Source: a virus. From it: a DNA stretch of 24,597 nt. The stretch lies in the IMG/VR virus record IMGVR_UViG_3300022777_000060, one strand, 5' to 3'. Of the stretch, positions 4,884-22,487 are shown in pieces. The notes under the pieces are model-generated. The model saw only the letters and a list, made by a program, of their open reading frames with translations, was not told where the DNA came from and did no database searches. Position numbers and translations under genes: made by a program. Every line of letters starts with the position of its first letter. Within the stretch, counting starts at the first letter, position 1.

Positions 4884-5339
4884 CTATTCAATGCTCCAAG
4901 TCAAGTCAGAGTCTTCCGTGCCGCCTTCATCTTCGATTGACCACGTGAGATCGCTTGTGGACGTGTCAGAGAGGTCTTCGATGCCCCAAGCCAAGTCGTA
5001 CTCTGCAGTTGAAGTTGTCGGAGCGAACACGGTGGCCACGCCGGAAAATGGCGTGTCCCCTCCATTTGTATCTATCACTTTGGCTTTGTATTCATACGTT
5101 ACTGGATCCAATCCACTGTCGCTCCAACTTGCTGTTGTGTTGGTTGTTGAAACTTCTTGAACTTTCGAGAACGAAGACGCACTTTGTTTTTTTTCGGAAG
5201 ATTTCGTACCGTTGAAAGTTCCAGTGAATGTCGTTCCATCCACAGAAACCGTTCCACTAACGGAAGTTCCAGAACGGTTCGCCGAGATCGTCGGTGCGCT
5301 GCTTTGTTGATACTCTGCAGCCGCCGAAACTTCACTCAC
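4884..5339 (-). CDS. FN3-like protein with three C-terminal DLxWxIE repeats; probable continuation of 5332..8178
   Basis: WSDSGLDPVTYEYKAKV FN3 signature; repeats YDLAWGIED/SDLTWSIED/SDLTWSIE. Confidence 0.75.
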   Translation of the reverse strand: MSEVSAAAEYQQSSAPTISANRSGTSVSGTVSVDGTTFTGTFNGTKSSEKKQSASSFSKVQEVSTTNTTASWSDSGLDPVTYEYKAKVIDTNGGDTPFSGVATVFAPTTSTAEYDLAWGIEDLSDTSTSDLTWSIEDEGGTEDSDLTWSIE

Positions 5340-8178
5340 TGCTCTCGATTGGACTGACAGAAGTGTACCCAGGCGTGACTCGCGTCTTATAGAAGAAGTC
5401 TTCTCCTGTAGTCAGTCCCGAATGCGTCCAACTCACTTGTTGGTTTGAAGGCGCAATGACTTCCTTGATGACCTGAAATGATCCTCCAGAGTTCGGAGCA
5501 GCGAGAACTTCAATCTTCGTTATGTTTTCAGGGACGATGCTTGTAGAAGCTGTTCCCTTTATAAAGGTGTCCCCAACAGAGCTTATCGAAGTCGTTACGG
5601 TAACACTTCCTTGGTTAATCGCGGCTTCAAGCGGATCTTCCAAAAGTCCAGGATACCAAAGAAACTCTTGAATCGCACCCTTATAACTTTCGTCAACCGG
5701 AGCATGTTGATCAGTTCTTCCCCCTCCGTAGCTAAGACCAAGCCGTACGTTTCCACTCTCTTTATAATCAACATTGTGAGAAACGATTTGTTGCTGCCCC
5801 TCAACGTCGAGGAACAAAACGTCCTCATTCACTGCTGCCGTTATACTGATTTCATCTTTCGTGTCGTCATAGGTGGTAAACAACTCTTCACCATTACCCT
5901 TTCGGTAAATGCCACCACTCCCACTAAATCCACTCGCAGCCCAAAGTTCACCTTTATGGACATTGATTGCCTTCCAGCTAGAACCCGTACCAGAAAGACT
6001 GCTTTTCTCTAATGTTTGTCCGTCCCATTTCCAAACCCCTTCATCGCTGGAGTTACTGAAAAACTCTTCCGTGAGATAGAGATCGCCGTCATAAACAGCC
6101 GATCCAGCTCTGTAGCTAAGTTCTATGCCAGTGGAATCTTCAGAGAACGAAGTTTCGAAAGCTTGATTACCCTCATCTAATACCCCGCTTATTTGTGAAT
6201 CCAGATTTCCGCCAAAGGAAAAGACACTCAGAGTATTGAGTTCACCCTTGTAACTTGGCGCAGATCCCGGAGAATAAATCGGAACACTTTCAGTTTCCTT
6301 TATACCAAAGTCATATTCAAGCTGAAGTCCAGTTTCCGGTGTCCAAGAATACATTGCTCCCAAACCTCGAAGGTGATATCCTGGAATCCACACCTTATCA
6401 TTCCACACCCCCGCTCCATGAGTTCCGGAAACATTATTCTCAAATCCTCCGATTCGAGCAATGGCATTGTTTTCAAACTGTTCTTCGGAAATCGCTTGTG
6501 ACCATTGGTTTCCATCATACCGATGAAGGATCGGATTCTCTGAGTCCAAAAAGTATGCGTCGCCGCGAAAAATGAAGCTGCTGGTGATGTTCGACCCGAA
6601 CCGAGGAAACGCAGACTTTTCAAACGTCCGACTACTTGAATCCCAAGATGATGAAAGACTGTATTGCTTAACAGCGGAGTTTGTGGTTTCTACAGAATCC
6701 GGAATCGGATCACCTGGATCTACGTCCGGATTCTCTGAAGCCACATACAAGTTGTTCCCGTCTGATTTGAAAGCAACCCCCCAAATTCCAGTTCCTTCGA
6801 CATCATCCAAAACTTCATCTAGAGAGTATGTGTTTGTGCTACTAACACTGCTAATGTCCCAAGCGGTCGAAAAGTTCTTCTCTATCAGATCATCAAAAGT
6901 TCCGAAGTATGCCTGAGTACCGTCCGGCCGGAAGAACATTCCCGTGCTGTTATCATCTCCCCCTGTACCGAACGAGTTTCCAGTAAAGGAAGCTGAACTT
7001 GGATCCCAAGCGGTTGAAAGATTATAGCTATACACTCTTGATTCCAGAGTACCGGAACCATCTCTTTCGGACTTGATAAACATTTTCGTTCCATCCGGTT
7101 TAAAGGCAACGCCATTCGGAACCCCAACTTCAGAGTTGAAATCGTATTCCGTTACAAAGGAAAGACTCTCGACTTCCCAAGCTGTCCCAAAGTCAAACTC
7201 AGCAATCGTTCGGCTCTCACTTGTTGAAGCGCCTTTGTCACTTACCCAAATTTTCGTTCCATCCGGTTTAATGTAGCTACCCCCAATCTCTGTAAGCCCA
7301 CTGCTGTCCGATATTGCCGGGAAGGAGTTCCCCCCGACGTACTCTCCAGAGCCAATATCCCAAGGCGTAGAAAGATCGAACTGGTGGATGTTCTCGTCTG
7401 AAACGTAGAGCTTCGATCCGTCTGGTTTGAACTGGAGAGCGCCCCTTCCTTTGGGGAAAACCTGTTCAACAGTCCAGGACGAGCCGTTATACGACTTTAT
7501 CTGAGATTGGTTATCGTTTTGAGCCCAAAGATTCCCGTCATACACGATCATGTCTCCACGCAATGTGCTGCTGAATGCTTCCCCTTGATCAACACTTATA
7601 AGCTGCTCATTCTGTGGATCCCATTTACTGATTTTGAAGCTGCTGAAGTTGAACTTCGTGAAAAAATATACTTCCCCCTCATAAGACTTGATTCCAGCAA
7701 TCGCTGCGGGAACCGGAGTTCGAACCGCTTCAGCATCCAAATCCGGATTTGAGATTGTCGCGAAGATTTTTCCATCCCGTTCCCAAACTTCTAACCCATT
7801 TGAATTTACGATTGTTTGTGGAGACCCCTTCAAGTCATCAACATCGACTGTCAACTCTACGCTTTGTATTCTACTTTGGGAAACTCCAGACGCATTGCTG
7901 AACTCAACTTCGTATCCGTCCTGTTTCTGGCTCCAATTTACTGTTCCACCACCGCCGCTTGTTGCAAGACTTCCACTTTCGACGATTTTCGGATACCTAT
8001 CGAGAGCTGGAGCAAGGGCATTTCCACCTTCAGCAACTTGGTTAAGAAAACGAACTCGGCCGTCAGCATTCGAGTCCTGTTGCGTCACAAAAGACACAAC
8101 CGATCCAGATCCAATGTCGGAAACATTGAATGCTTGAACCGCTCCATCTGTGGATCTTCGAACTTCGATTGCAGACAC
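5332..8178 (-). CDS. Adhesin/receptor-binding-like protein A (split LamG, two nested beta-propellers, FN3), 948 aa
   Basis: FKPDG/LSTAWD repeats, YDGxxW repeats, YKGAIQEFLWYP LamG-like end, HSGLTTGEDFFYK FN3. Confidence 0.8.
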   Translation of the reverse strand: MSAIEVRRSTDGAVQAFNVSDIGSGSVVSFVTQQDSNADGRVRFLNQVAEGGNALAPALDRYPKIVESGSLATSGGGGTVNWSQKQDGYEVEFSNASGVSQSRIQSVELTVDVDDLKGSPQTIVNSNGLEVWERDGKIFATISNPDLDAEAVRTPVPAAIAGIKSYEGEVYFFTKFNFSSFKISKWDPQNEQLISVDQGEAFSSTLRGDMIVYDGNLWAQNDNQSQIKSYNGSSWTVEQVFPKGRGALQFKPDGSKLYVSDENIHQFDLSTPWDIGSGEYVGGNSFPAISDSSGLTEIGGSYIKPDGTKIWVSDKGASTSESRTIAEFDFGTAWEVESLSFVTEYDFNSEVGVPNGVAFKPDGTKMFIKSERDGSGTLESRVYSYNLSTAWDPSSASFTGNSFGTGGDDNSTGMFFRPDGTQAYFGTFDDLIEKNFSTAWDISSVSSTNTYSLDEVLDDVEGTGIWGVAFKSDGNNLYVASENPDVDPGDPIPDSVETTNSAVKQYSLSSSWDSSSRTFEKSAFPRFGSNITSSFIFRGDAYFLDSENPILHRYDGNQWSQAISEEQFENNAIARIGGFENNVSGTHGAGVWNDKVWIPGYHLRGLGAMYSWTPETGLQLEYDFGIKETESVPIYSPGSAPSYKGELNTLSVFSFGGNLDSQISGVLDEGNQAFETSFSEDSTGIELSYRAGSAVYDGDLYLTEEFFSNSSDEGVWKWDGQTLEKSSLSGTGSSWKAINVHKGELWAASGFSGSGGIYRKGNGEELFTTYDDTKDEISITAAVNEDVLFLDVEGQQQIVSHNVDYKESGNVRLGLSYGGGRTDQHAPVDESYKGAIQEFLWYPGLLEDPLEAAINQGSVTVTTSISSVGDTFIKGTASTSIVPENITKIEVLAAPNSGGSFQVIKEVIAPSNQQVSWTHSGLTTGEDFFYKTRVTPGYTSVSPIESSE

Positions 8179-8218
8179 GTATGCTTTTAGTTGTTGTTTG
8201 TACTGTGTTTATGTATCC

Positions 8219-11200
8219 TTACTTCAAGGTAATGCTATCATACCACATTGCGGCGTTAGGGAATCCGGAAGTTGCCCAAGCCTCTCCACCGAAACCTTTG
8301 AACTGGTGAAGTCGGATATCAGTAATATCTACGCCTTGCTGAAGTGATTGCGTTCCCGTTTTTGTAATACCGTCCGCAGTGTTCTCCCAAGTCCAGTTTA
8401 CTTCAGTGTTCCCCCAATCAAACTGTAGATTGACACGGTGCCACGTTTGGTATACGTTAGCTCCACCGCCACTCGAACTGTCGGTTCCATCAAACACCTG
8501 AATGATGTCTGTTTCGTTATCTGTCGGCGCAAAAACCCATTGCGGGTTGTTTGTCGCGACTCCAAGCTCTTGGTTTCCATTGGAGTTAAAAAACCGAACT
8601 CCGGATCCGGGTTGATTGCTCGTCTCGTAATAATAAAACTCTGCTTCCGAAATCTGCTGTGCTGAAGATAGGTTATGGGTTGCGTAAAGGTAAGTGGAGT
8701 TATTTGAAATATCGATCCCCCCACTCTGACTGCCTGCAAATACGTTATCAGTTTTGATTTGGAAGTCAGAGGTATCGACTGACCACTTGCTCAAGTTGGA
8801 TTCGAAGTCTTCATTCAAAATGAAGGCGGCGGCCGTGCTTACCTCGGTTTCTTCGGAAAGAGCTGTTTCGGTAGTGTCATTTCTCACCGCACTGACCTTA
8901 TAGAAGAAGTTCGCGTCAGCGGAAACCGACGAGTCTATGAAGTACTCATTCGTAACATTTGAGCTGCTTACCTCTGTGAAGTTGCCTCCAGAAGAGTCAA
9001 CACGATATACGTTGTAGTGACTAATGTTTGTGCTGTTTGTATCCCAACTGACCGTGACTTCAGTGTTGCCCGAATCAAACGATGTTTGAACATTTGTTGG
9101 AACCTCATACGTAACGCCCGGCGTATTGAACTGGATTCCAACCGCTTCGTCAGTTCCAGTACTCAACGTGTTCATCTCAGTCTTCGTCGTAACATCCCAA
9201 GCAGTCGTCATGAGGTTTTCTGTAATCGTTCCCCCAACTGTTGCTGTGTAAAATCGTGTGCCGTCTTCACGGAAGAACAGCCCGCCCGAAGGGTCGGAAA
9301 CGGATACTTTGTTCTGAAAACTCGCTGTGGAAATGTCCCAAGAGGTTCCAAGTGCGAAGCTGGCAACGTGTCCGGAGTCAAGCGTAGCATAAAGCTCATT
9401 ACCATCCGGTTTGAACGCAATGTCTCCGTTGATTACCTCGCCTGTCTGATTCGGATCATCAAGCGTTGCGGTTTGGTTGAAGCTCGCTGTCGTGATGTCC
9501 CAAGCACCCGATAGGTTGAATGCATATACGTCCATGCTTGACTGTTGAGAAATGAACATCTGAGATCCATCCGGTCGGAAAAATAGCCCATTCGGGTTGT
9601 CGGGGAATGTTGAGAACGTTGTGAGATCCAGAAAGTCGTCGTCATTTTGAGTTGTGAACGTCTCATACGCTTCCGTCAAACTAGCCTGAAACATAGCCGG
9701 TACATCATTCTCTGTATCCCGAAGGAAGAAGATTCGGGTTCCGTCCGACCGGAAGAAGAATCCTTGTGGAGAAAGAAGAACATCATCCGGTCCTCCAGCT
9801 TCTCCTGCGGTAAGCGCAAGATCAACGTTGATTTGAGAAACTTTCGCAGTCTTACTAAGATTCCAAGCATCTGTAATCCGGAAGTGTTGCAAATCTGGCG
9901 AGAAACTTGCTTCTCTGTCTAGGATGTAAGTACTGTTTGTCGGGTTCAGCTCTGCAGACTTGGTTGCGCTCTGAGCGTACTCAGTGCCACTCACTACAAT
10001 TCGGACATAGTAGAAGAACTCTCCGACCCCCGGAGTGTCCGTGTATCCAGTTTTAGAAGATACATTTGCTATTTGCGTGAACGTACCTCCAGCCGTGTCG
10101 GCTCGGTACACATTGTAAGAATCTGGAGTTCGAAGGTCGCTTACTGACCACGTAACTTCTATTTCTTTATCTCTTGCGTTTGCGTCGACATTGAAACTTT
10201 CGAATGTGATGTTTGATGGTTGCTGAGAAGCAGCCGCCGGAATGTTCGTGTTGAAGGATACGTCATTTGGAGGAAAGCTGAAACCTCGTGTTCGCAACTC
10301 AAGATTTGCGTCGTAGCTTTGACCGTATTCCAACTCTTCACTGGAAAGGTTATACTCGCCAATCATCACTGAATCAGACTCAGTGGTAAGCTCTTCTGCA
10401 GTCTGCTTGAAAGATACGTAGATTTCATTGTTATCAGTTACAAAGGAATCAGAGGTCGCTTCTGGATCTTCCGAAGCTGAATCTTGAAACACCTTCTGTA
10501 CGAACGTGAACTGATTATCGAACACATAAAAAGAGTCTCCAACAGTTTGTGATGAGCCCCCGATTGTAAACACAACGCCCCCATTTGGTTTCCAGCTTAC
10601 TGAAGAAGCCGGATCTCCACCGACTCCGGAAGAAAACCACTCCGGTCCTGTACTGAAAGAGCCAACACTGTTCAAAGAGTTATCCCAAACTTCAAAGTTC
10701 TCAGCTGCCGGATCATCGGCCGTATCGTTCATGCCAACAAGGTAGTCTGCATTCGGGCCGCTAAAGTTGTTCCATGCCGCAACACCAATTTTGGAACCAA
10801 AAGTACCAACGACGTTTCTGGCAGAATCAATAACCAAAAGACTTCCTCGGATGTTGTTGGCCGTGTTTCGCTGTAATGCATAAAAGGATCCGTCAGACTC
10901 CCGAAAGTCTATTTCGGTTATGTTTGCTTCTGTGGCAACGTTGCTGTAATCGATGTTCGCGATCCGATTGAAAGATGAGTCATAAAAGAATATCCGGTTT
11001 TCCGAAGTAGCCACCACCATTCGGCTGGTCGCTTCATGAAACGCGATCTCGGTCGCAAATGGAAGTGAGTTGTTGACTTCAAGACCATCACCTCCGGAAA
11101 AAACTTGCGTCAAAGCTCCAGTTTGTGAATCAATCGAATAGACCTGGATTGGCGCGAAGCCTGATCCCCGACCGACGACTCCAATATGCCCGTCTCCACG

Positions 11201-12115
11201 AAATGCTATTCCATTTACGCTATTCTGATCGATCGTGTCGAGAAGGTTGAAAGAAGTGTCCCAAATTCGAACTGAGCTGTTTGTGCGGGAAGCTATGAAG
11301 TTGCCGTTCCAAATGACTTCATTATTAGAGTTCGGGTCATTCCCTGTTCCATTAACCTGAGGATCACCGGATAGAAGAGCGGTTGTCGGACTTTCTGAAT
11401 AGAGAGTAGCGAGATCAATAGAAGGTGTAATCGACGTCGAAGTAACGATCGTATCTGACTCTTTACTATTCTGGAACGTCGATTGGCTGGACTTTTTCCA
11501 TCGAAGAATAGGTTTTGCAGCCTCAAGTTGGGAAAATGATGTCACTTCAACGTCGACCGTTTTCAGTGAAGGGGAAGAGTAGGTAACACTTGAAGTCCCA
11601 ACCTCTACACTGATCAAAGAACTGTCTTCAACTGGTGTGAACTGTGACGTTCCTCCAGCCGACAAAACTGATCGGACTTTATAGAACTTCTTTTCACCTT
11701 CCGAAATACTCGTGTCCGTGTACTGCGTCGATGTCGGTTCAGCGATTATTGAAAAAGTGCCGGTTTCGCTGTCGGATCGATGGACTTCATAACGATCAAC
11801 AAGACTCTCGTTGAATACGTCCCACGTAAGCGTTACTTCATTGCCAGCGTCGTCCGGATTTGTTTGCAGATTGACCGAACGCGCGCCGTCATCAAGCACG
11901 TCGTTTGCATCCCCCGTTTGCGTAAGGCTCCAAAAGATGCTCGGAGAGACTGTTTGAGGATCTGGCTGTCCACCGCTTGTGTCTCCACAACAAACAGCTT
12001 CCCAAGACCCGCTGATTTTGACGTACAGGCACTTGACGATCTCCCAGTTCCCGCCAACCTTTGTGTAGCCTTTTGGAACTCGTTGCCAAGAGCCGTCCTT
12101 GTAATATACAGCCAT
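8219..12115 (-). CDS. Large tail-fibre/adhesin-like protein (1298 aa): KxxGxW N-terminal repeats, FN3 domains, beta-propellers, C-terminal ConA-like domain
   Basis: Start MAVYYKDGSW placed after the terminator; FN3 motifs (YNVYR...YTD...FYKV); FFRxDG/AWDI repeats; EDFES...WYDSI lectin-like end. Confidence 0.8.
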   Translation of the reverse strand: MAVYYKDGSWQRVPKGYTKVGGNWEIVKCLYVKISGSWEAVCCGDTSGGQPDPQTVSPSIFWSLTQTGDANDVLDDGARSVNLQTNPDDAGNEVTLTWDVFNESLVDRYEVHRSDSETGTFSIIAEPTSTQYTDTSISEGEKKFYKVRSVLSAGGTSQFTPVEDSSLISVEVGTSSVTYSSPSLKTVDVEVTSFSQLEAAKPILRWKKSSQSTFQNSKESDTIVTSTSITPSIDLATLYSESPTTALLSGDPQVNGTGNDPNSNNEVIWNGNFIASRTNSSVRIWDTSFNLLDTIDQNSVNGIAFRGDGHIGVVGRGSGFAPIQVYSIDSQTGALTQVFSGGDGLEVNNSLPFATEIAFHEATSRMVVATSENRIFFYDSSFNRIANIDYSNVATEANITEIDFRESDGSFYALQRNTANNIRGSLLVIDSARNVVGTFGSKIGVAAWNNFSGPNADYLVGMNDTADDPAAENFEVWDNSLNSVGSFSTGPEWFSSGVGGDPASSVSWKPNGGVVFTIGGSSQTVGDSFYVFDNQFTFVQKVFQDSASEDPEATSDSFVTDNNEIYVSFKQTAEELTTESDSVMIGEYNLSSEELEYGQSYDANLELRTRGFSFPPNDVSFNTNIPAAASQQPSNITFESFNVDANARDKEIEVTWSVSDLRTPDSYNVYRADTAGGTFTQIANVSSKTGYTDTPGVGEFFYYVRIVVSGTEYAQSATKSAELNPTNSTYILDREASFSPDLQHFRITDAWNLSKTAKVSQINVDLALTAGEAGGPDDVLLSPQGFFFRSDGTRIFFLRDTENDVPAMFQASLTEAYETFTTQNDDDFLDLTTFSTFPDNPNGLFFRPDGSQMFISQQSSMDVYAFNLSGAWDITTASFNQTATLDDPNQTGEVINGDIAFKPDGNELYATLDSGHVASFALGTSWDISTASFQNKVSVSDPSGGLFFREDGTRFYTATVGGTITENLMTTAWDVTTKTEMNTLSTGTDEAVGIQFNTPGVTYEVPTNVQTSFDSGNTEVTVSWDTNSTNISHYNVYRVDSSGGNFTEVSSSNVTNEYFIDSSVSADANFFYKVSAVRNDTTETALSEETEVSTAAAFILNEDFESNLSKWSVDTSDFQIKTDNVFAGSQSGGIDISNNSTYLYATHNLSSAQQISEAEFYYYETSNQPGSGVRFFNSNGNQELGVATNNPQWVFAPTDNETDIIQVFDGTDSSSGGGANVYQTWHRVNLQFDWGNTEVNWTWENTADGITKTGTQSLQQGVDITDIRLHQFKGFGGEAWATSGFPNAAMWYDSITLK

Positions 12116-12161
12116 CGAAAGAAGAGTTGTACTGGTTCTGCTGATAAATATGAGCCGACAT

Positions 12162-12196
12162 AGAAAACCCCGCGACCCGAAACCGGACCACGGGGC
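12162..12196 (-). terminator. Rho-independent terminator downstream of tRNA-Leu(GAG)
   Basis: CCCCGTGGTCCG-GTTT-CGGGTCGCGGGG-TTTTCT. Confidence 0.8.
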
Positions 12197-12222
12197 AAAG
12201 GAACCAACCGACCAAAGTTGAG

Positions 12223-12306
12223 TACCGGTGGAGGGACTTGAACCCACACGCCCTCTCGGACACTGCGCCCTCAACGCAGCGCGTCTACCAATTCCGCCAC
12301 ACCGGC
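12223..12306 (-). tRNA. tRNA-Leu(GAG)
   Basis: CTGCG-TT GAG GG-CGCAG; long variable arm; A73. Confidence 0.95.
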
Positions 12307-12312
12307 ATTTTG

Positions 12313-12443
12313 TACCGAAGACAGGACTCGAACCTGCACGCCAACTCCGGAAGATCTACGCTTGACCAACCACGCAGGATTTCGGCACCGGGTTAGGTGG
12401 TCGTAAGCCGCCCGGCATGTCTACCAAGTTCCATCACTTCGGC
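12313..12443 (-). ncRNA. tRNA-Leu-like RNA with an 18-nt anticodon loop and an approximately 50-nt branched variable region
   Basis: Intact acceptor GCCGAAG/CTTCGGT-A, Leu-type D-arm, T-arm and anticodon stem CCGGG/CCCGG. Confidence 0.8.
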
Positions 12444-12447
12444 ATCA

Positions 12448-12455
12448 TTATATAT
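12448..12455 (-). promoter_or_regulatory. ATATATAA box
   Basis: 4 nt upstream of the Leu-like RNA. Confidence 0.55.
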
Positions 12456-12458
12456 GTG

Positions 12459-12704
12459 TCAACGAGAAAACATATCGTCAAAAGTCTCGCCCTCTTTCTC
12501 TTCGAAGCTGTACGTCACTTCCTCTTTCGCTTCCATCACGGGAACTTTCTTGAACTCGCGATAATCTCCGCTTTCTTCCCACATTTGGGCGATCTCTTTT
12601 TCAAGAGTCACGCCTTTCGTGATCATTTGAGTTTCCTCTGTTCGGTGACGTGCTTCAATCGCCCCTCTGCTGTTGTCTCTGTCTCTAAGGATGTATGCTT
12701 TCAT
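12459..12704 (-). CDS. Hypothetical protein (81 aa)
   Basis: ORF track; ATGA overlap with the upstream gene. Confidence 0.75.
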   Translation of the reverse strand: MKAYILRDRDNSRGAIEARHRTEETQMITKGVTLEKEIAQMWEESGDYREFKKVPVMEAKEEVTYSFEEKEGETFDDMFSR

Positions 12705-15737: not shown

Positions 15738-15814
15738 AGCCACCGGACGGATTCGAACCGCCGACTTCGCCCTTACGAGGGGCGCGCTCTGGACCGAACT
15801 AAAGCTACGGTGGC
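15738..15814 (-). tRNA. tRNA-Thr(CGT)
   Basis: CGCCC-CT CGT AA-GGGCG; U73. Confidence 0.95.
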
Positions 15815-16979: not shown

Positions 16980-17005
16980 ATCGGAGTGAGGAAGGTATAT
17001 TGTTG

Positions 17006-17081
17006 TAACCCCCCCGGGACTCGAACCCGGAAGCGTCGCGTTTTGAGCGCGACAGGTCTGCCAAATTCCCGTCAGGGGGCC
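17006..17081 (-). tRNA. tRNA-Leu(CAA) with short variable loop
   Basis: TCGCG-CT CAA AA-CGCGA; 5-nt variable loop; A73. Confidence 0.85.
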
Positions 17082-17654: not shown

Positions 17655-17655
17655 G

Positions 17656-17730
17656 TGCGGAGGGAGGGGATCGAACCCCCATGCGCCACGGTCTGAACGT
17701 GACAGGTCTGCCAATTCCCGTCACCTCCGC
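17656..17730 (-). tRNA. tRNA-Leu(CAG) with short variable loop
   Basis: TCACG-TT CAG AC-CGTGG; 5-nt variable loop; A73. Confidence 0.85.
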
Positions 17731-17740
17731 GTATATAAAG

Positions 17741-17847
17741 TGCCGAGGACAGGAGTCGAACCTGCACGTGGCGCTGAGTGGCGCCACACTGGATCCTCAG
17801 TCCAGCACGTCTACCACGGGCTGAAAACCCTATTCCGTCACCCCGGC
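17741..17847 (-). tRNA. tRNA-Leu(GAG) with an extra hairpin in the D-loop
   Basis: CTGGA-CT GAG GA-TCCAG; D-loop insert GGGTT-TTC-AGCCC. Confidence 0.8.
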
Positions 17848-18093
17848 ATGTACCTGAACCTCTCCCCCAAGCTTCTTATACTCTTCCTCTGCGTACCGCT
17901 CAGAAACGTCCAGAGCCGTTCCATCATTTCTCTCCATCCGGTAGCGGACATCGCCCGTCCAGCTGTTCTCTTCTTTGATGATGTAAACCTTCCGAACGCT
18001 CTCTTGGCCGAACGCATTTCCGAAGACACCGTACTCTGACTCACAGCCAAGCTCTTCCCAAGTGCCGAGAAGATTCTTGATGGAACGAAGCAT
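17830..18093 (-). CDS. Hypothetical protein (87 aa)
   Basis: ORF track; stop lies inside tRNA-Leu(GAG). Confidence 0.7.
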   Translation of the reverse strand: MLRSIKNLLGTWEELGCESEYGVFGNAFGQESVRKVYIIKEENSWTGDVRYRMERNDGTALDVSERYAEEEYKKLGGEVQVHAGVTE

Positions 18094-21068: not shown

Positions 21069-21767
21069 TTACAAAACAAAATCTTTTGCCATTCTACACT
21101 CTTGTCCGTTTTTCGGAAGTTCTATTCTAAGGTGAAAACTGTGATGGCAGTTTTCAACTTCTTCAAACGGAACAAGATAACACTCACCCGTTTCTTTTGA
21201 GTATGTTGCAAAATAGTCTACTTGACCGTGATAAGTATAAGTTTTTCCACCCGATACACTACACGTTCTTATTTGAAGTCTTTCTCCATTTTTTGACTTC
21301 GGAGTTTTACATTGAACCCTCTGAAAGTTTTCGTTCTCATCTTCAAAAACAATGTCATATCTATCATTCTCTCCATAAGGTTCCAGCACAGTGTGACCGA
21401 GTTCAACAAGTCTTGTTGCTACTTTCAACTCGGTCAGGTCACCCTTATCTTTTTTATGTTGTGTCGGTCCAGAGTTCTCTTTTACTTTTCGGACTTTTTT
21501 CTTTTTATCTCCATACTTTTGAACCGTGCTTTCACTTACATCAAAGCGGTCTGCAGTTTGTTCTTTTGTATAGTTTTTGTAATATTCGCGTATTTTTTCT
21601 TGCTCTTCTTCGCTTATTTCTTTTTGCTTCTTGCCTATATCTTCAAGTCCTTCTTGCTTGCAATGGTAAGATATCGTCCCTTTCGAACAATCAAGCTCTT
21701 CTTTTATTTCGTTATAGGTCTTGCCTTCCTTTCGAAGTCGTATGATGTCTTTCTTATACTTGCTCAT
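21069..21767 (-). CDS. Tandem-HTH plus PD-(D/E)XK endonuclease (I-Ssp6803I / group I intron-associated PDDEXK_5-like), free-standing
   Basis: KGDLTE...PYGENDRYDIV...RVQCKT...VDYFATY...YLVP; two N-terminal HTH-like repeats; AT-rich relative to flanks. Confidence 0.85.
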   Translation of the reverse strand: MSKYKKDIIRLRKEGKTYNEIKEELDCSKGTISYHCKQEGLEDIGKKQKEISEEEQEKIREYYKNYTKEQTADRFDVSESTVQKYGDKKKKVRKVKENSGPTQHKKDKGDLTELKVATRLVELGHTVLEPYGENDRYDIVFEDENENFQRVQCKTPKSKNGERLQIRTCSVSGGKTYTYHGQVDYFATYSKETGECYLVPFEEVENCHHSFHLRIELPKNGQECRMAKDFVL

Positions 21768-21859: not shown

Positions 21860-21892
21860 AGAAGCGTTCTGGCCGAGCTGAACTATGCAGGC
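21860..21892 (-). pseudogene. 5' half of a tRNA (positions 1-31; Thr-like, but Val or Phe not excluded)
   Basis: GCCTGCA TA GTTC AGCTCGGCCA GAAC G CTTCT followed by the leader. Confidence 0.8.
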
Positions 21893-22169: not shown

Positions 22170-22246
22170 TTGTCCCGGATAGATTTGAACTACCGCCCTT
22201 TCGCTTATCAGACGACTGCTCTAAGACCAGACTGAGCTACGGGACA
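22170..22246 (-). tRNA. tRNA-Ile(GAT)
   Basis: GTCGT-CT GAT AA-GCGAA; acceptor TGTCCCG/CGGGACA-A. Confidence 0.92.
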
Positions 22247-22260
22247 GTGTTTCGCATTTG

Positions 22261-22268
22261 TTATATAT
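22261..22268 (-). promoter_or_regulatory. ATATATAA box
   Basis: 14 nt upstream of tRNA-Ile. Confidence 0.55.
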
Positions 22269-22487
22269 GATTCAATATTCGCTACCACCGTTCCAAGCGT
22301 GCTCTTCACGCGAGTTGAATCCCGGAAGCACAAGATAGTTCGTGTCGTCTTGGAAGTCCATTGTTGTCCGCTTTCTTGTAACAGCGCCGGACGTTCCACG
22401 GATTTCATATCCGTCGATATGCCGCGGCAAGTTGCCTTGCGCCTTTGATGTACTCGGTTTCGTGATTTTTGATTAGCGTTCTCGGTT

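What the first reader, a model, noticed from the sequence alone, without database searches (positions are those of the whole stretch)
12313..12455. 131-nt tRNA-Leu-like RNA with no anticodon and a branched giant variable arm
Seen: the acceptor (A73), Leu-type D-arm, anticodon stem and T-arm all pair. The anticodon loop is 18 nt (CGGCTTACGACCACCTAA). The variable region is about 50 nt with nested helices (GCCGA/TTGGC enclosing CTGCG/CGTAG and a small CTTCCGGAG hairpin). It has its own ATATATAA box. Retained pairing argues against random decay. Known: bacterial LeuRS largely ignores the anticodon. Inference: a chargeable but non-decoding tRNA mimic, for example a decoy for anticodon nucleases, LeuRS or EF-Tu, or a Leu donor or scaffold.
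Basis: partly seen in the sequence, partly recalled or inferred. Interest (0 to 1): 0.8.

Follow-up and report, generated by a model that had tools for sequence, protein, structure and literature searches.

The report
Oversized, non-decoding leucine-tRNA-shaped phage gene
A salt-lake phage carries a 131-base gene with the intact upper body of a leucine tRNA whose anticodon loop and variable arm are swollen by extra sequence, so it cannot read codons; the nearest relative lacks it, and whether it is a disabled tRNA copy or a working tRNA-shaped RNA cannot be settled from sequence.

Summary
Window 12313-12443 (minus strand) has a flawless class II tRNA-Leu frame: a 7/7 acceptor stem with A73, a Leu-type D arm, a 5-bp anticodon stem and a canonical T arm. 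It carries an 18-nt anticodon loop and a 47-nt variable arm. A covariance model built from it aligns end to end with ordinary phage Leu tRNAs (up to 59.9 bits). ARAGORN and Rfam do not call it.

The helices inside the inserts are no better than chance (z 0.02 to -0.85).

It lies between a conserved TATATA box and tRNA-Leu(GAG), which is followed by a terminator. The only syntenic relative (L019) has the same box directly in front of tRNA-Leu(GAG) and lacks the whole unit. I found no copy anywhere else.

This scan has noted oversized Leu-tRNA-framed phage RNAs on other DNA before. My own IMG/VR search recovered 94 of them with intact acceptor stems. None resembles this element's middle overall. 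In two multi-copy clusters the middles are conserved.

For this singleton no selection test is possible. I put it at about 45% a disabled, dispensable tRNA-Leu copy that is still co-transcribed, and 40% a working non-decoding tRNA-framed RNA. The decoy or leucine-donor idea has no direct support.

The parts
12448..12461 (-). AT-rich TATATA box (TGACACATATATA), putative promoter of the two-gene RNA operon
   Evidence: Read. The same box with about 40 nt of flank is conserved in L019, where it lies directly in front of tRNA-Leu(GAG). It is not a sigma-70 match. A similar box lies at 22262-22274 upstream of a tRNA.
12313..12443 (-). 131-nt tRNA-Leu-framed, non-decoding element (whole unit)
   Evidence: Not called by ARAGORN or by Rfam at gathering score.
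12437..12443 (-). acceptor stem, 5' strand GCCGAAG
   Evidence: Pairs 7/7 with 12314-12320. Pair probability 0.92-1.0.
12417..12434 (-). Leu-type D arm (3-bp stem AUG/CAU, loop GAACUUGGUAGA)
   Evidence: Aligns with D arms of class II Leu tRNAs. The stem differs from paralogues by compensatory changes.
12388..12415 (-). anticodon-arm homologue: 5-bp stem CCGGG/CCCGG with an 18-nt loop
   Evidence: The loop is about 11 nt longer than normal. An inner GG/CC pairing would present CUUACGA.; fold z -0.55.
12340..12386 (-). enlarged variable arm: stem GCCGA/UUGGC enclosing a 37-nt insert (12345-12381)
   Evidence: The stem sits where class II variable stems sit, followed by GU and then the T stem. 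Fold z -0.85 for the arm and 0.02 for the insert.
12356..12377 (-). hairpin CUGCG-UGGUUGGUCAAG-CGUAG inside the variable arm, D-arm-like
   Evidence: The Rfam tRNA model aligns it weakly as a D arm after a second GCCGAA. A similar hairpin lies in the enlarged variable arm of an unrelated oversized element, L087.
12321..12337 (-). canonical T arm GCAGG-UUCGAGU-CCUGU
   Evidence: Identical to the T arm of tRNA-Leu(TAG) of LR756501. Its stem strands GCAGG/CCUGU equal those of the Leu(GAG) copy at 17741-17847, whose T loop differs at one base (UUCGACU).
12313..12320 (-). acceptor stem 3' strand CUUCGGU plus discriminator A73
12222..12306 (-). canonical tRNA-Leu(GAG), 6 nt downstream, co-transcribed partner
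   Evidence: ARAGORN. Rfam 49.9 bits. Conserved in L019, with compensatory stem changes visible in the aligned sequences.
12167..12196 (-). intrinsic terminator closing the operon
   Evidence: 13-pair stem followed by a T run. Conserved in L019.

Best explanation
The element is a paralogue of the phage's class II leucine tRNAs that can no longer decode. About 11 extra nucleotides sit in its anticodon loop, and a 37-nt piece sits in the loop of its variable arm. That piece looks like a decayed 5' part of a tRNA.

Shown:
- It is tRNA-Leu-derived.
- The acceptor, D, anticodon-stem and T helices and the tertiary-contact nucleotides are intact.
- It has no anticodon loop in register.
- It is the promoter-proximal unit of a small operon: TATATA box, element, 6-nt spacer, tRNA-Leu(GAG), terminator.
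- The one syntenic relative does without it.

Inferred:
- It is transcribed with tRNA-Leu(GAG) and released when RNase P cuts at the 5' end of that tRNA.
- Its own tRNA-like ends probably let it be trimmed like a tRNA.
- Most likely it is a disabled, dispensable extra Leu gene. It would be a product of the frequent rearrangement of this phage's tRNA cluster, young enough that its frame has not decayed, rather than an RNA selected for a new job.

The margin over the functional reading is small.
For: - Homology of the frame to ordinary Leu tRNAs, with both inserts absent from every homologue.
- The closest relative, L019, shares the glycosylase-like gene at 85% aa and the large downstream gene at 70% aa. 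It has the same promoter box, tRNA-Leu(GAG) and terminator at about 93% nt identity by my count from the alignment, but lacks the roughly 139-nt unit cleanly.
- No other copy was found in 130 kb of related loci, in IMG/VR or in metagenome contigs. The flanking 81-aa ORF is an orphan.
- Insert sequences fold no better than shuffles.
- Five Leu anticodons are already supplied by other genes in the window: GAG, CAA, TAA, CAG and TAG.
- The same window holds several tRNA relics and aberrant copies. These are 5' halves at 21860-21892 and 377-404, a 3' module at 716-760, and a Leu(GAG) with a D-loop insert at 17741-17847. Relatives carry degenerate Leu-like units beside good ones.
- The variable-arm insert begins with a second GCCGAA followed by a D-arm-like hairpin. 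That fits an origin by partial duplication or recombination among tRNA genes.
Against: - The frame is flawless. There are 7/7, 3/3, 5/5 and 5/5 pairs, and U8, A14, G18G19, U48, the T loop and A73 are all present.
- It differs from its paralogue at 17741-17847 by four compensatory double changes and has no disrupting change. A long-dead gene would not look like this.
- If the variable-arm insert really is a decayed tRNA 5' part, its decay contrasts with the intact frame. That would imply selection on the frame after the insertion.
- Oversized Leu-framed, non-decoding elements with intact acceptor stems are common in phages (94 of 117 pattern hits).
- In two multi-copy clusters of such elements the middles are as invariant as the frames while the flanks vary.
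- More than half of those middles are as unstructured by z-score as this one. A unique, unstructured insert and patchy distribution are therefore also what a working member of that class would show.
- tRNA content varies widely among the relatives anyway, so absence from L019 is weak evidence.
Confidence: 0.45

Rival explanations
1. It is a working, non-decoding tRNA-framed RNA, one more member of the large and poorly described set of oversized tRNA-shaped genes in phage tRNA clusters. The intact acceptor/T minihelix and D/T elbow would recruit RNase P, 3' trimming and CCA addition, and possibly LeuRS and EF-Tu. That would give a stable RNA with defined ends. The two inserts would be the functional or at least tolerated part, and the anticodon would be deliberately unusable.
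For: - The frame and tertiary nucleotides are flawless, with compensatory changes relative to paralogues.
- It sits first behind a conserved promoter box.
- 94 oversized Leu-framed elements of 107-135 nt with at least 6/7 acceptor pairing exist in IMG/VR. None is called as a tRNA by ARAGORN.
- Middles are conserved against variable flanks in two clusters.
- A five-contig family (L080) has a compensatory change in its variable stem.
- There are two local resemblances to class members. The first 13 loop nucleotides match L080 at 10 of 13 positions. Hairpin B resembles a hairpin in the enlarged variable arm of L087.
- A 5-7 bp complementarity exists between the anticodon loop (GACCACC) and the hairpin B loop (GGUUGGUC).
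- LeuRS does not need the anticodon arm for charging (PMC2377443).
Against: - It is a singleton. It is absent from the only syntenic relative and has no orthologue with the inserts anywhere searched.
- Inserts are at chance level for folding.
- Overall its middle matches none of the 94 class members by BLAST.
- The two local resemblances have rough p-values of about 0.01 each after multiple looks.
- The loop-loop complementarity is expected by chance about once in ten.
- The enlarged variable arm may hinder LeuRS.
- There is no expression data.
Confidence: 0.4
2. The inserts are removed after transcription, as intron-like elements, to give a normal decoding tRNA.
For: - ARAGORN with introns allowed and a lowered threshold can draw Ser(GCU) with a 52-nt intron.
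- After deleting both inserts by hand it calls a class II tRNA.
- Some oversized relatives elsewhere (L080) keep a good anticodon-loop sequence, AUUAAAA, at the 3' end of the expanded loop.
Against: - No contiguous 11-nt deletion from the loop leaves U33 (one search gives CACCUAA, CGCCUAA, CGGCUAA and CGGCUUA only).
- Two separate inserts would both have to be excised.
- From general knowledge, known bacterial and phage tRNA introns are group I introns of more than 200 nt, and no bulge-helix-bulge motif is present.
- Rfam finds no intron family here.
- tRNA-Tyr is class II in this cluster, so the host is bacterial.
Confidence: 0.05
3. It acts in cis as a structured 5' leader that helps processing or stability of the downstream tRNA-Leu(GAG) and has no life of its own.
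For: It lies 6 nt upstream of tRNA-Leu(GAG) in one transcription unit. A second aberrant Leu-like unit lies 10 nt upstream of tRNA-Leu(CAG).
Against: L019 expresses the orthologous tRNA-Leu(GAG) from the same box without any such leader. Nothing in the element pairs with the downstream tRNA.
Confidence: 0.05

Closest known systems
Bacterial and phage class II tRNA-Leu (Rfam RF00005)
   Same: - Acceptor stem with A73.
- 3-bp D stem with a Leu-type D loop.
- 5-bp anticodon stem.
- Variable stem followed by GU and the T stem.
- Canonical T loop.
- End-to-end alignment to Leu tRNAs with the element's own covariance model.
   Different: - 18-nt instead of 7-nt anticodon loop, with no U33 or anticodon in register.
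- 47-nt branched variable arm instead of about 12-21 nt.
- Below the Rfam gathering score (15.2 against 29 bits, and only for the 3' 74 nt).
- Not called by ARAGORN.
Phage T4 small stable RNAs rnaC (species 1, 139 nt) and rnaD (species 2, 119 nt) of the tRNA cluster
   Same: - Similar size.
- Location inside a T4-type phage tRNA cluster next to tRNA genes and homing endonuclease genes.
- rnaC ends in a tRNA-like T arm and acceptor-like 3' end.
- Function unknown.
   Different: - No detectable sequence or structure homology: the element's model does not hit rnaC or rnaD at E up to 10.
- The element keeps a complete Leu D arm, anticodon stem and variable stem.
- I could not check T4 RNA stability and processing data in the open library.
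Oversized Leu-tRNA-framed phage RNAs with variable middles
   Same: This kind was noted repeatedly by this scan on other DNA and recovered independently here.
- Leu-type D loop and T loop.
- 7-bp acceptor stem, mostly with A73.
- 107-135 nt.
- No callable anticodon arm.
- In phage tRNA clusters.
- The middle is unique to each lineage.
   Different: - This element retains both the anticodon stem and the variable stem in their homologous places, so it reads as a tRNA with two loop insertions rather than a frame with a replaced middle.
- Its acceptor stem resembles its neighbouring true tRNAs, not the recurrent AGUCAGG chassis (20 of 94).
- No relative carries it, so conservation of its middle cannot be shown.
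YrlA-type Y RNAs (Rfam RF02553), tRNA-like RNAs bound by Ro60/Rsr
   Same: A tRNA-like acceptor/T/D module joined to extra structure. They are encoded by bacteria and phages. My control search with a class I frame recovered many oversized elements that carry an ACAGCAA motif.
   Different: - No RF02553 match on the element.
- No ACAGCAA motif.
- No Ro60-like gene among the ORFs scanned.
- The frame is Leu class II rather than class I.
tRNA pseudogenes and relics left by homing-endonuclease traffic in T-even-type tRNA clusters (for example around segB in T4)
   Same: The cluster has PD-(D/E)XK endonuclease genes and stranded tRNA halves. The element is a present/absent unit between close relatives.
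   Different: The other relics in this window are plainly truncated. This unit is complete at both ends, and no endonuclease gene adjoins it.

Membership tests
Canonical tRNA-Leu (class II, RF00005) | 7-bp acceptor stem with discriminator A73 | tested here: met
   GCCGAAG/CUUCGGU gives 7/7 pairs including G1.U72, with A73 at 12313.
Canonical tRNA-Leu (class II, RF00005) | D arm, T arm and tertiary-contact nucleotides (U8, A14, G18G19, U48, G53-U54-U55-C56, A58, C61) | tested here: met
   All read directly in the sequence. Aligned with high posterior to Leu tRNAs.
Canonical tRNA-Leu (class II, RF00005) | 7-nt anticodon loop with U33 and a Leu anticodon on a 5-bp stem | tested here: not met
   The loop is 18 nt. 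No 11-nt deletion restores U33. The inner CUUACGA loop would sit on an irregular 8-bp stem with a 5-nt bulge.
Canonical tRNA-Leu (class II, RF00005) | Score at or above the family threshold in standard finders | tested here: not met
   Not called by ARAGORN. Nothing in Rfam at gathering score. 15.2 bits against 29 for the 3' part only.
T4 rnaC/rnaD-type stable RNAs | Sequence or structure homology to rnaC or rnaD | tested here: not met
   Model R1 gives no hit on rnaC or rnaD in the T4 locus at E up to 10.
T4 rnaC/rnaD-type stable RNAs | Accumulates as a stable processed RNA during infection | not testable with these tools
Oversized Leu-framed phage RNAs | Leu-type D loop and T loop, paired 7-bp acceptor stem, length above about 105 nt, no callable anticodon arm, in a phage tRNA cluster | tested here: met
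   Element. Class: 94 of 117 hits with at least 6/7 acceptor pairing, and 0 of 94 called by ARAGORN.
Oversized Leu-framed phage RNAs | Middle conserved among related phages relative to flanks (evidence of a selected gene) | tested here: not met
   Met in two class clusters. For this element the only syntenic relative lacks the unit, and no other copy exists in the collections searched.
YrlA / Y RNA-like | RF02553 match, Ro-binding stem, linked Ro60/Rsr gene | tested here: not met
   No RF02553 hit on the element. No TROVE-like domain among the 18 ORFs scanned; not all ORFs were scanned.
Intron-bearing tRNA (group I or bulge-helix-bulge) | A recognisable intron whose removal restores a normal anticodon loop | tested here: not met
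   The inserts are 11 and 37 nt. No intron family is found in Rfam. No deletion restores U33.
tRNA pseudogene | Loss of decoding capacity, redundancy, and no conservation in relatives | tested here: met
tRNA pseudogene | Decay of stems and invariant nucleotides | tested here: not met
   The frame has no disrupting change. This is compatible only with a recent disabling event.

The most novel reading that the evidence does not exclude
The element is a selected, leucine-chargeable but non-decoding tRNA-shaped RNA. Its expanded anticodon loop pairs with the hairpin in its enlarged variable arm, hiding the anticodon end. On this reading it would serve the phage as a decoy for tRNA-targeting host defences or as a carrier of activated leucine. 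It would then be a hypersaline member of a very large, undescribed family of tRNA-framed phage RNAs.
Probability: 0.15. Interest if true: 0.75.

Novelty: new variant of a known kind. Interest (0 to 1): 0.35.

Why it matters
On its own this copy matters little. It is a singleton that the nearest relative does without.

It matters as one more data point for a wider pattern that I could confirm independently. Phage tRNA clusters hold many oversized genes that keep a perfect tRNA frame but cannot decode, and standard tRNA finders miss them. Some of these have conserved middles. Apart from T4 rnaC/rnaD and the Y RNA-like YrlA family, I found no description of them in the papers I could search.

If such RNAs are charged or bound by tRNA-handling proteins, they bear on how phages deal with tRNA-cleaving defences and on non-translational uses of aminoacyl-tRNA.

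This element also shows a possible route of origin: a normal Leu tRNA gene altered by loop insertions while the frame stays intact.

Tried and rejected
- Intron reading. ARAGORN with introns finds nothing at default settings. At a lowered threshold it draws Ser(GCU) with a 52-nt intron and G33. Rejected.
- tmRNA, YrlA and other Rfam families. Nothing on the element at E up to 10.
- Source of the inserts. BLAST of the variable arm against 50,697 phage records gave only chance hits. The exact 23-mer was absent from 185,579 prokaryote genomes. There is no second copy in the window.
- Search for the element elsewhere:
  - a 17-mer of the loop in IMG/VR gave 8 chance hits;
  - a 21-mer junction in metagenome contigs gave one chance hit inside a coding region;
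  - a conserved 20-mer of the neighbouring terminator was absent from IMG/VR, so this phage lineage is not in that collection.
- Protein-anchored searches in IMG/VR with three neighbouring proteins found no relatives.
- Relatives L009, L010, L014, L015, L022, L023 and L024, reached through the glycosylase-like gene, lack the whole segment from about 12700 to about 1800 of the window. They are therefore uninformative.
- Internal duplication of the 5' part into the variable arm. The local alignment is not significant (p 0.5). A global alignment with boundaries chosen after the fact gives p 0.003. Left open.
- Loop-loop pairing between the anticodon loop and hairpin B. 5 Watson-Crick pairs, or 7 with a bulge. 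My estimate of the chance expectation is about 0.1, so it is not evidence.
- Thermodynamic support for the cloverleaf. Pair probabilities of D and T arms are near zero for the true Leu tRNAs as well, so this test does not discriminate.
- Leu-specificity of oversized frames. A class I control pattern also saturated the search, so the phenomenon is not specific to Leu frames.
- No whole genome is held for the window.

Full report
SETTING

All genes in the window run on the minus strand. ARAGORN tRNAs. Rfam adds two more, Thr(CGU) at 15738-15814 and Ile(GAU) at 22170-22246. tRNA-Tyr has a long variable arm, so the host is a bacterium. Earlier notes of this scan on the same genome describe a large T4-like salt-lake phage whose tRNA cluster is riddled with homing-endonuclease cassettes and stranded tRNA pieces. 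I re-read three of those relics: 21860-21892, 377-404 and 716-760. A PD-(D/E)XK endonuclease gene lies at 21069-21767.

THE OBSERVATION

On the minus strand, 12443 to 12313 reads as follows:
- acceptor strand GCCGAAG, then UG;
- D arm AUG-GAACUUGGUAGA-CAU, then G;
- anticodon stem CCGGG, an 18-nt loop, CCCGG, then U;
- variable stem strand GCCGA, then AAUC;
- hairpin CUGCG-UGGUUGGUCAAG-CGUAG, then AU;
- CUUCCGGAG, then variable stem strand UUGGC, then GU;
- T arm GCAGG-UUCGAGU-CCUGU;
- acceptor strand CUUCGGU, then A.

ARAGORN and Rfam at gathering score do not call the element. In E-value mode Rfam aligns only the last 74 nt, at 15.2 bits. It treats a second GCCGAA and the inner hairpin as an acceptor strand and D arm.

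IS THE FRAME REAL?

I searched it against 130 kb of related and comparison loci. It aligns over all 131 positions with ordinary class II Leu tRNAs:
- 59.9 bits, Leu(CAA) of LR756501;
- 56.9 bits, Leu(CAG) of L011;
- 53.2 bits, the neighbouring Leu(GAG).

In each alignment CCGGG/CCCGG falls on the anticodon stem and GCCGA/UUGGC on the variable stem. The two extra stretches show up as deletions in every homologue: 17-18 nt becomes 6-7 nt, and 37-41 nt becomes 2-5 nt. A MAFFT alignment agrees.

Compared with the paralogue at 17741-17847, the element has compensatory double changes at pairs 6-67, 11-24, 28-42 and 31-39 and no disrupting change. The frame is therefore a genuine, intact tRNA-Leu frame.

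ARE THE INSERTS STRUCTURED?

No. Fold z-scores against dinucleotide shuffles:

| Stretch | z-score |
|---|---|
| Variable arm | -0.85 |
| 37-nt insert | 0.02 |
| Anticodon hairpin | -0.55 |
| Whole element | 0.06 |
| tRNA-Leu(GAG) | -2.34 |
| D-loop-insert Leu(GAG) copy | -2.20 |

That gap is slightly larger than for any called tRNA of the window, where it is 0-12 kcal/mol. Pair probabilities do not discriminate, because true Leu tRNAs also score near zero for the D and T arms.

DECODING

No contiguous 11-nt removal from the loop gives U33. The loop can present CUUACGA on two G-C pairs, but only on top of an irregular 8-bp stem with a 5-nt bulge. When I removed the variable-arm insert by hand, ARAGORN drew that form as Val(UAC). 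This shows only how permissive the parse is. Normal decoding is excluded. The window already supplies Leu anticodons GAG, CAA, TAA, CAG and TAG.

CONTEXT AND RELATIVES

The element is followed after 6 nt by tRNA-Leu(GAG) (12222-12306). A 13-pair intrinsic terminator follows at 12167-12196. The unit is therefore the first gene of a two-RNA operon.

Homologues of the upstream glycosylase-like gene led to seven related contigs. All of them lack the whole window segment from about 12700 to about 1800.

The large downstream gene has one 70%-identical homologue. It lies on a 10.7-kb contig, L019. L019 shares:
- the glycosylase-like gene at 85% aa;
- the promoter box with about 40 nt of flank;
- tRNA-Leu(GAG), the terminator and the leader of the large gene at roughly 93-95% nt by my count from the alignment.

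In L019 the box abuts tRNA-Leu(GAG) directly, and the roughly 139-nt unit is cleanly absent. The small ORF just upstream is unrelated in the two phages. The direction of the event, loss in L019 or gain here, cannot be determined.

Tandems of a class II tRNA followed by Leu(GAG), with the same T arm in the upstream member, occur in unrelated phages. This suggests the tandem is old and the upstream member was once an ordinary tRNA.

No other copy of the element or its inserts was found.

THE WIDER CLASS

A word search of this scan's earlier notes returned many reports, on other genomes, of phage RNAs that keep the upper half of a leucine tRNA around a variable middle. T4 rnaC/rnaD was named there as the nearest known. 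I treated these notes as leads and tested them.

- The pattern does not impose acceptor pairing. Even so, 94 of 117 hits have at least 6/7 acceptor pairs and a good T stem. 69 of those have A73, and lengths are 107-135 nt.
- ARAGORN calls none of them as tRNAs.
- Their middles fall into 73 unrelated clusters.
- The median fold z of the middles is -0.38 and 19% are below -2. This element's middle scores +0.32.
- In the two largest clusters the middle is as invariant as the frame (0.98), while the flanks are not (0.32-0.65 upstream).
- A class I control pattern also saturated the search. It gave 76 of 118 hits with intact frames, many with an ACAGCAA motif reminiscent of YrlA Y RNAs.

Oversized tRNA-framed genes are thus common in phages, are not confined to Leu frames, and at least some are under selection.

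T4 rnaC and rnaD are annotated in the T4 tRNA cluster. rnaC ends in a T arm. R1 does not detect either.

Two class members share local features with this element:
- L080 is a five-contig family with one compensatory change in its variable stem. The first 13 nt of its expanded anticodon loop match at 10 of 13 positions.
- L087 has an enlarged variable arm containing CCUACCG...CGGUAGA, similar to CCUGCG...CGUAGA here.

Each resemblance is worth roughly p = 0.01 after multiple looks. They are suggestive only.

WEIGHING

For a disabled, dispensable copy:
- it is absent from the nearest relative;
- it is a singleton;
- the inserts are at chance level;
- the Leu set is redundant;
- relics abound in this cluster and in relatives.

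For a working tRNA-framed RNA:
- the frame is flawless;
- it sits first behind a conserved promoter box;
- a large class exists whose members typically have unique, often unstructured middles and patchy distribution;
- if the variable-arm insert is a decayed tRNA 5' part (weak), its decay contrasts with the preserved frame.

If the disabling events happened after the split from L019 (about 7% nucleotide divergence), an undamaged frame is expected about half the time even without selection. The intact frame therefore decides little.

I end near parity: 0.45 relic, 0.40 functional, 0.05 spliced, 0.05 cis leader.

Charging is plausible because A73 and the tertiary core are the main LeuRS determinants and the anticodon arm is dispensable. 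The same study reports that the variable arm's orientation and maximal length must be preserved (PMC2377443).

VERDICT

The feature is real and accurately described. It is a tRNA-Leu derivative that cannot decode, and its function is undetermined. As a single, unconserved copy it is of modest interest. Its main value is as another instance of a widespread, poorly described kind of phage gene.

Noticed in passing
window 17741-17847 (-): A second tRNA-Leu(GAG) with a 15-nt hairpin inserted in the D loop. Everything else is intact, including the anticodon loop CUGAGGA and a 7-bp variable stem. ARAGORN misses it and Rfam scores 28.4 bits, just under threshold. Fold z is -2.2. It lies 10 nt upstream of tRNA-Leu(CAG), and the stop codon of ORF 17830-18093 falls in the insert.
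   Followed up: partly
window 17005-17081 and 17655-17730 (-); L009, L010, L011, L015: Leu tRNAs (CAA, CAG, TAA, TAG) with 4-5-nt variable loops, that is type I-like Leu tRNAs, sit beside class II ones in this phage clade. LeuRS charging of both types is described for Streptomyces coelicolor (PMC6614811, seen).
   Followed up: no
L009 6573-6656; L015 6601-6692 and 7018-7107; L010 2944-3032 and 6959-7044: In relatives of this phage, tRNAs that are normally class I (Pro, Gln, Thr, Cys, His, Arg) have variable regions of 7-15 nt, some with a stem. Total lengths are 80-92 nt.
   Followed up: no
window 12100-12221 (-) and L019 1574-1700: The non-coding stretch after tRNA-Leu(GAG), made up of the terminator and the leader of the 1311-aa gene, is about 95% identical between the two phages by my count. 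The gene it precedes is only 70% identical in protein.
   Followed up: no
IMG/VR loci L026-L140: At least 94 oversized (107-135 nt) Leu-tRNA-framed elements have intact acceptor stems and unrelated middles. 20 share the acceptor AGUCAGG/CCUGACU, starting with A1. In two clusters the middle is as conserved as the frame while the flanks vary.
   Followed up: partly
IMG/VR loci L141-L257: A control search with a class I frame (TGGTAGAGC ... GGTTCGAATCC, 47-77 nt apart) also saturated. 76 of 118 hits have intact acceptor stems at 94-123 nt. Many carry ACAGCAA in the middle, which resembles tRNA-like Y RNAs (YrlA).
   Followed up: no
L080 1327-1459 (-); L258-L261: A 133-nt tRNA-Leu-like gene is conserved in five contigs of one metagenome. 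It has a roughly 49-nt hairpin insertion on the 5' side of the anticodon loop, and the loop still ends in AUUAAAA (a UAA anticodon context). There is one compensatory change in the variable stem. It lies 20 nt upstream of tRNA-Tyr.
   Followed up: partly
L015 445-530; L010 736-820: Degenerate class II Leu-like units, with acceptor and T-stem mismatches and not called by ARAGORN, lie directly after tRNA-Leu(TAG). They are at the same place in two relatives.
   Followed up: no
window 12459-12704 (-) and L019 1181-1420: The small ORF between the glycosylase-like gene and the promoter box is an orphan here (81 aa, with no homologue among 5.8 billion proteins). It is replaced by an unrelated 79-aa ORF in L019.
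   Followed up: partly
window 5332-12154 (-); L020: Two very large genes (948 and 1311 aa) have only faint Pfam hits (SGL, RGI lyase beta-sheet). A 42%-identical homologue sits among phage tail beta-helix genes on a 468-kb contig. They are likely tail fibre or receptor-binding proteins inserted in the tRNA region.
   Followed up: no
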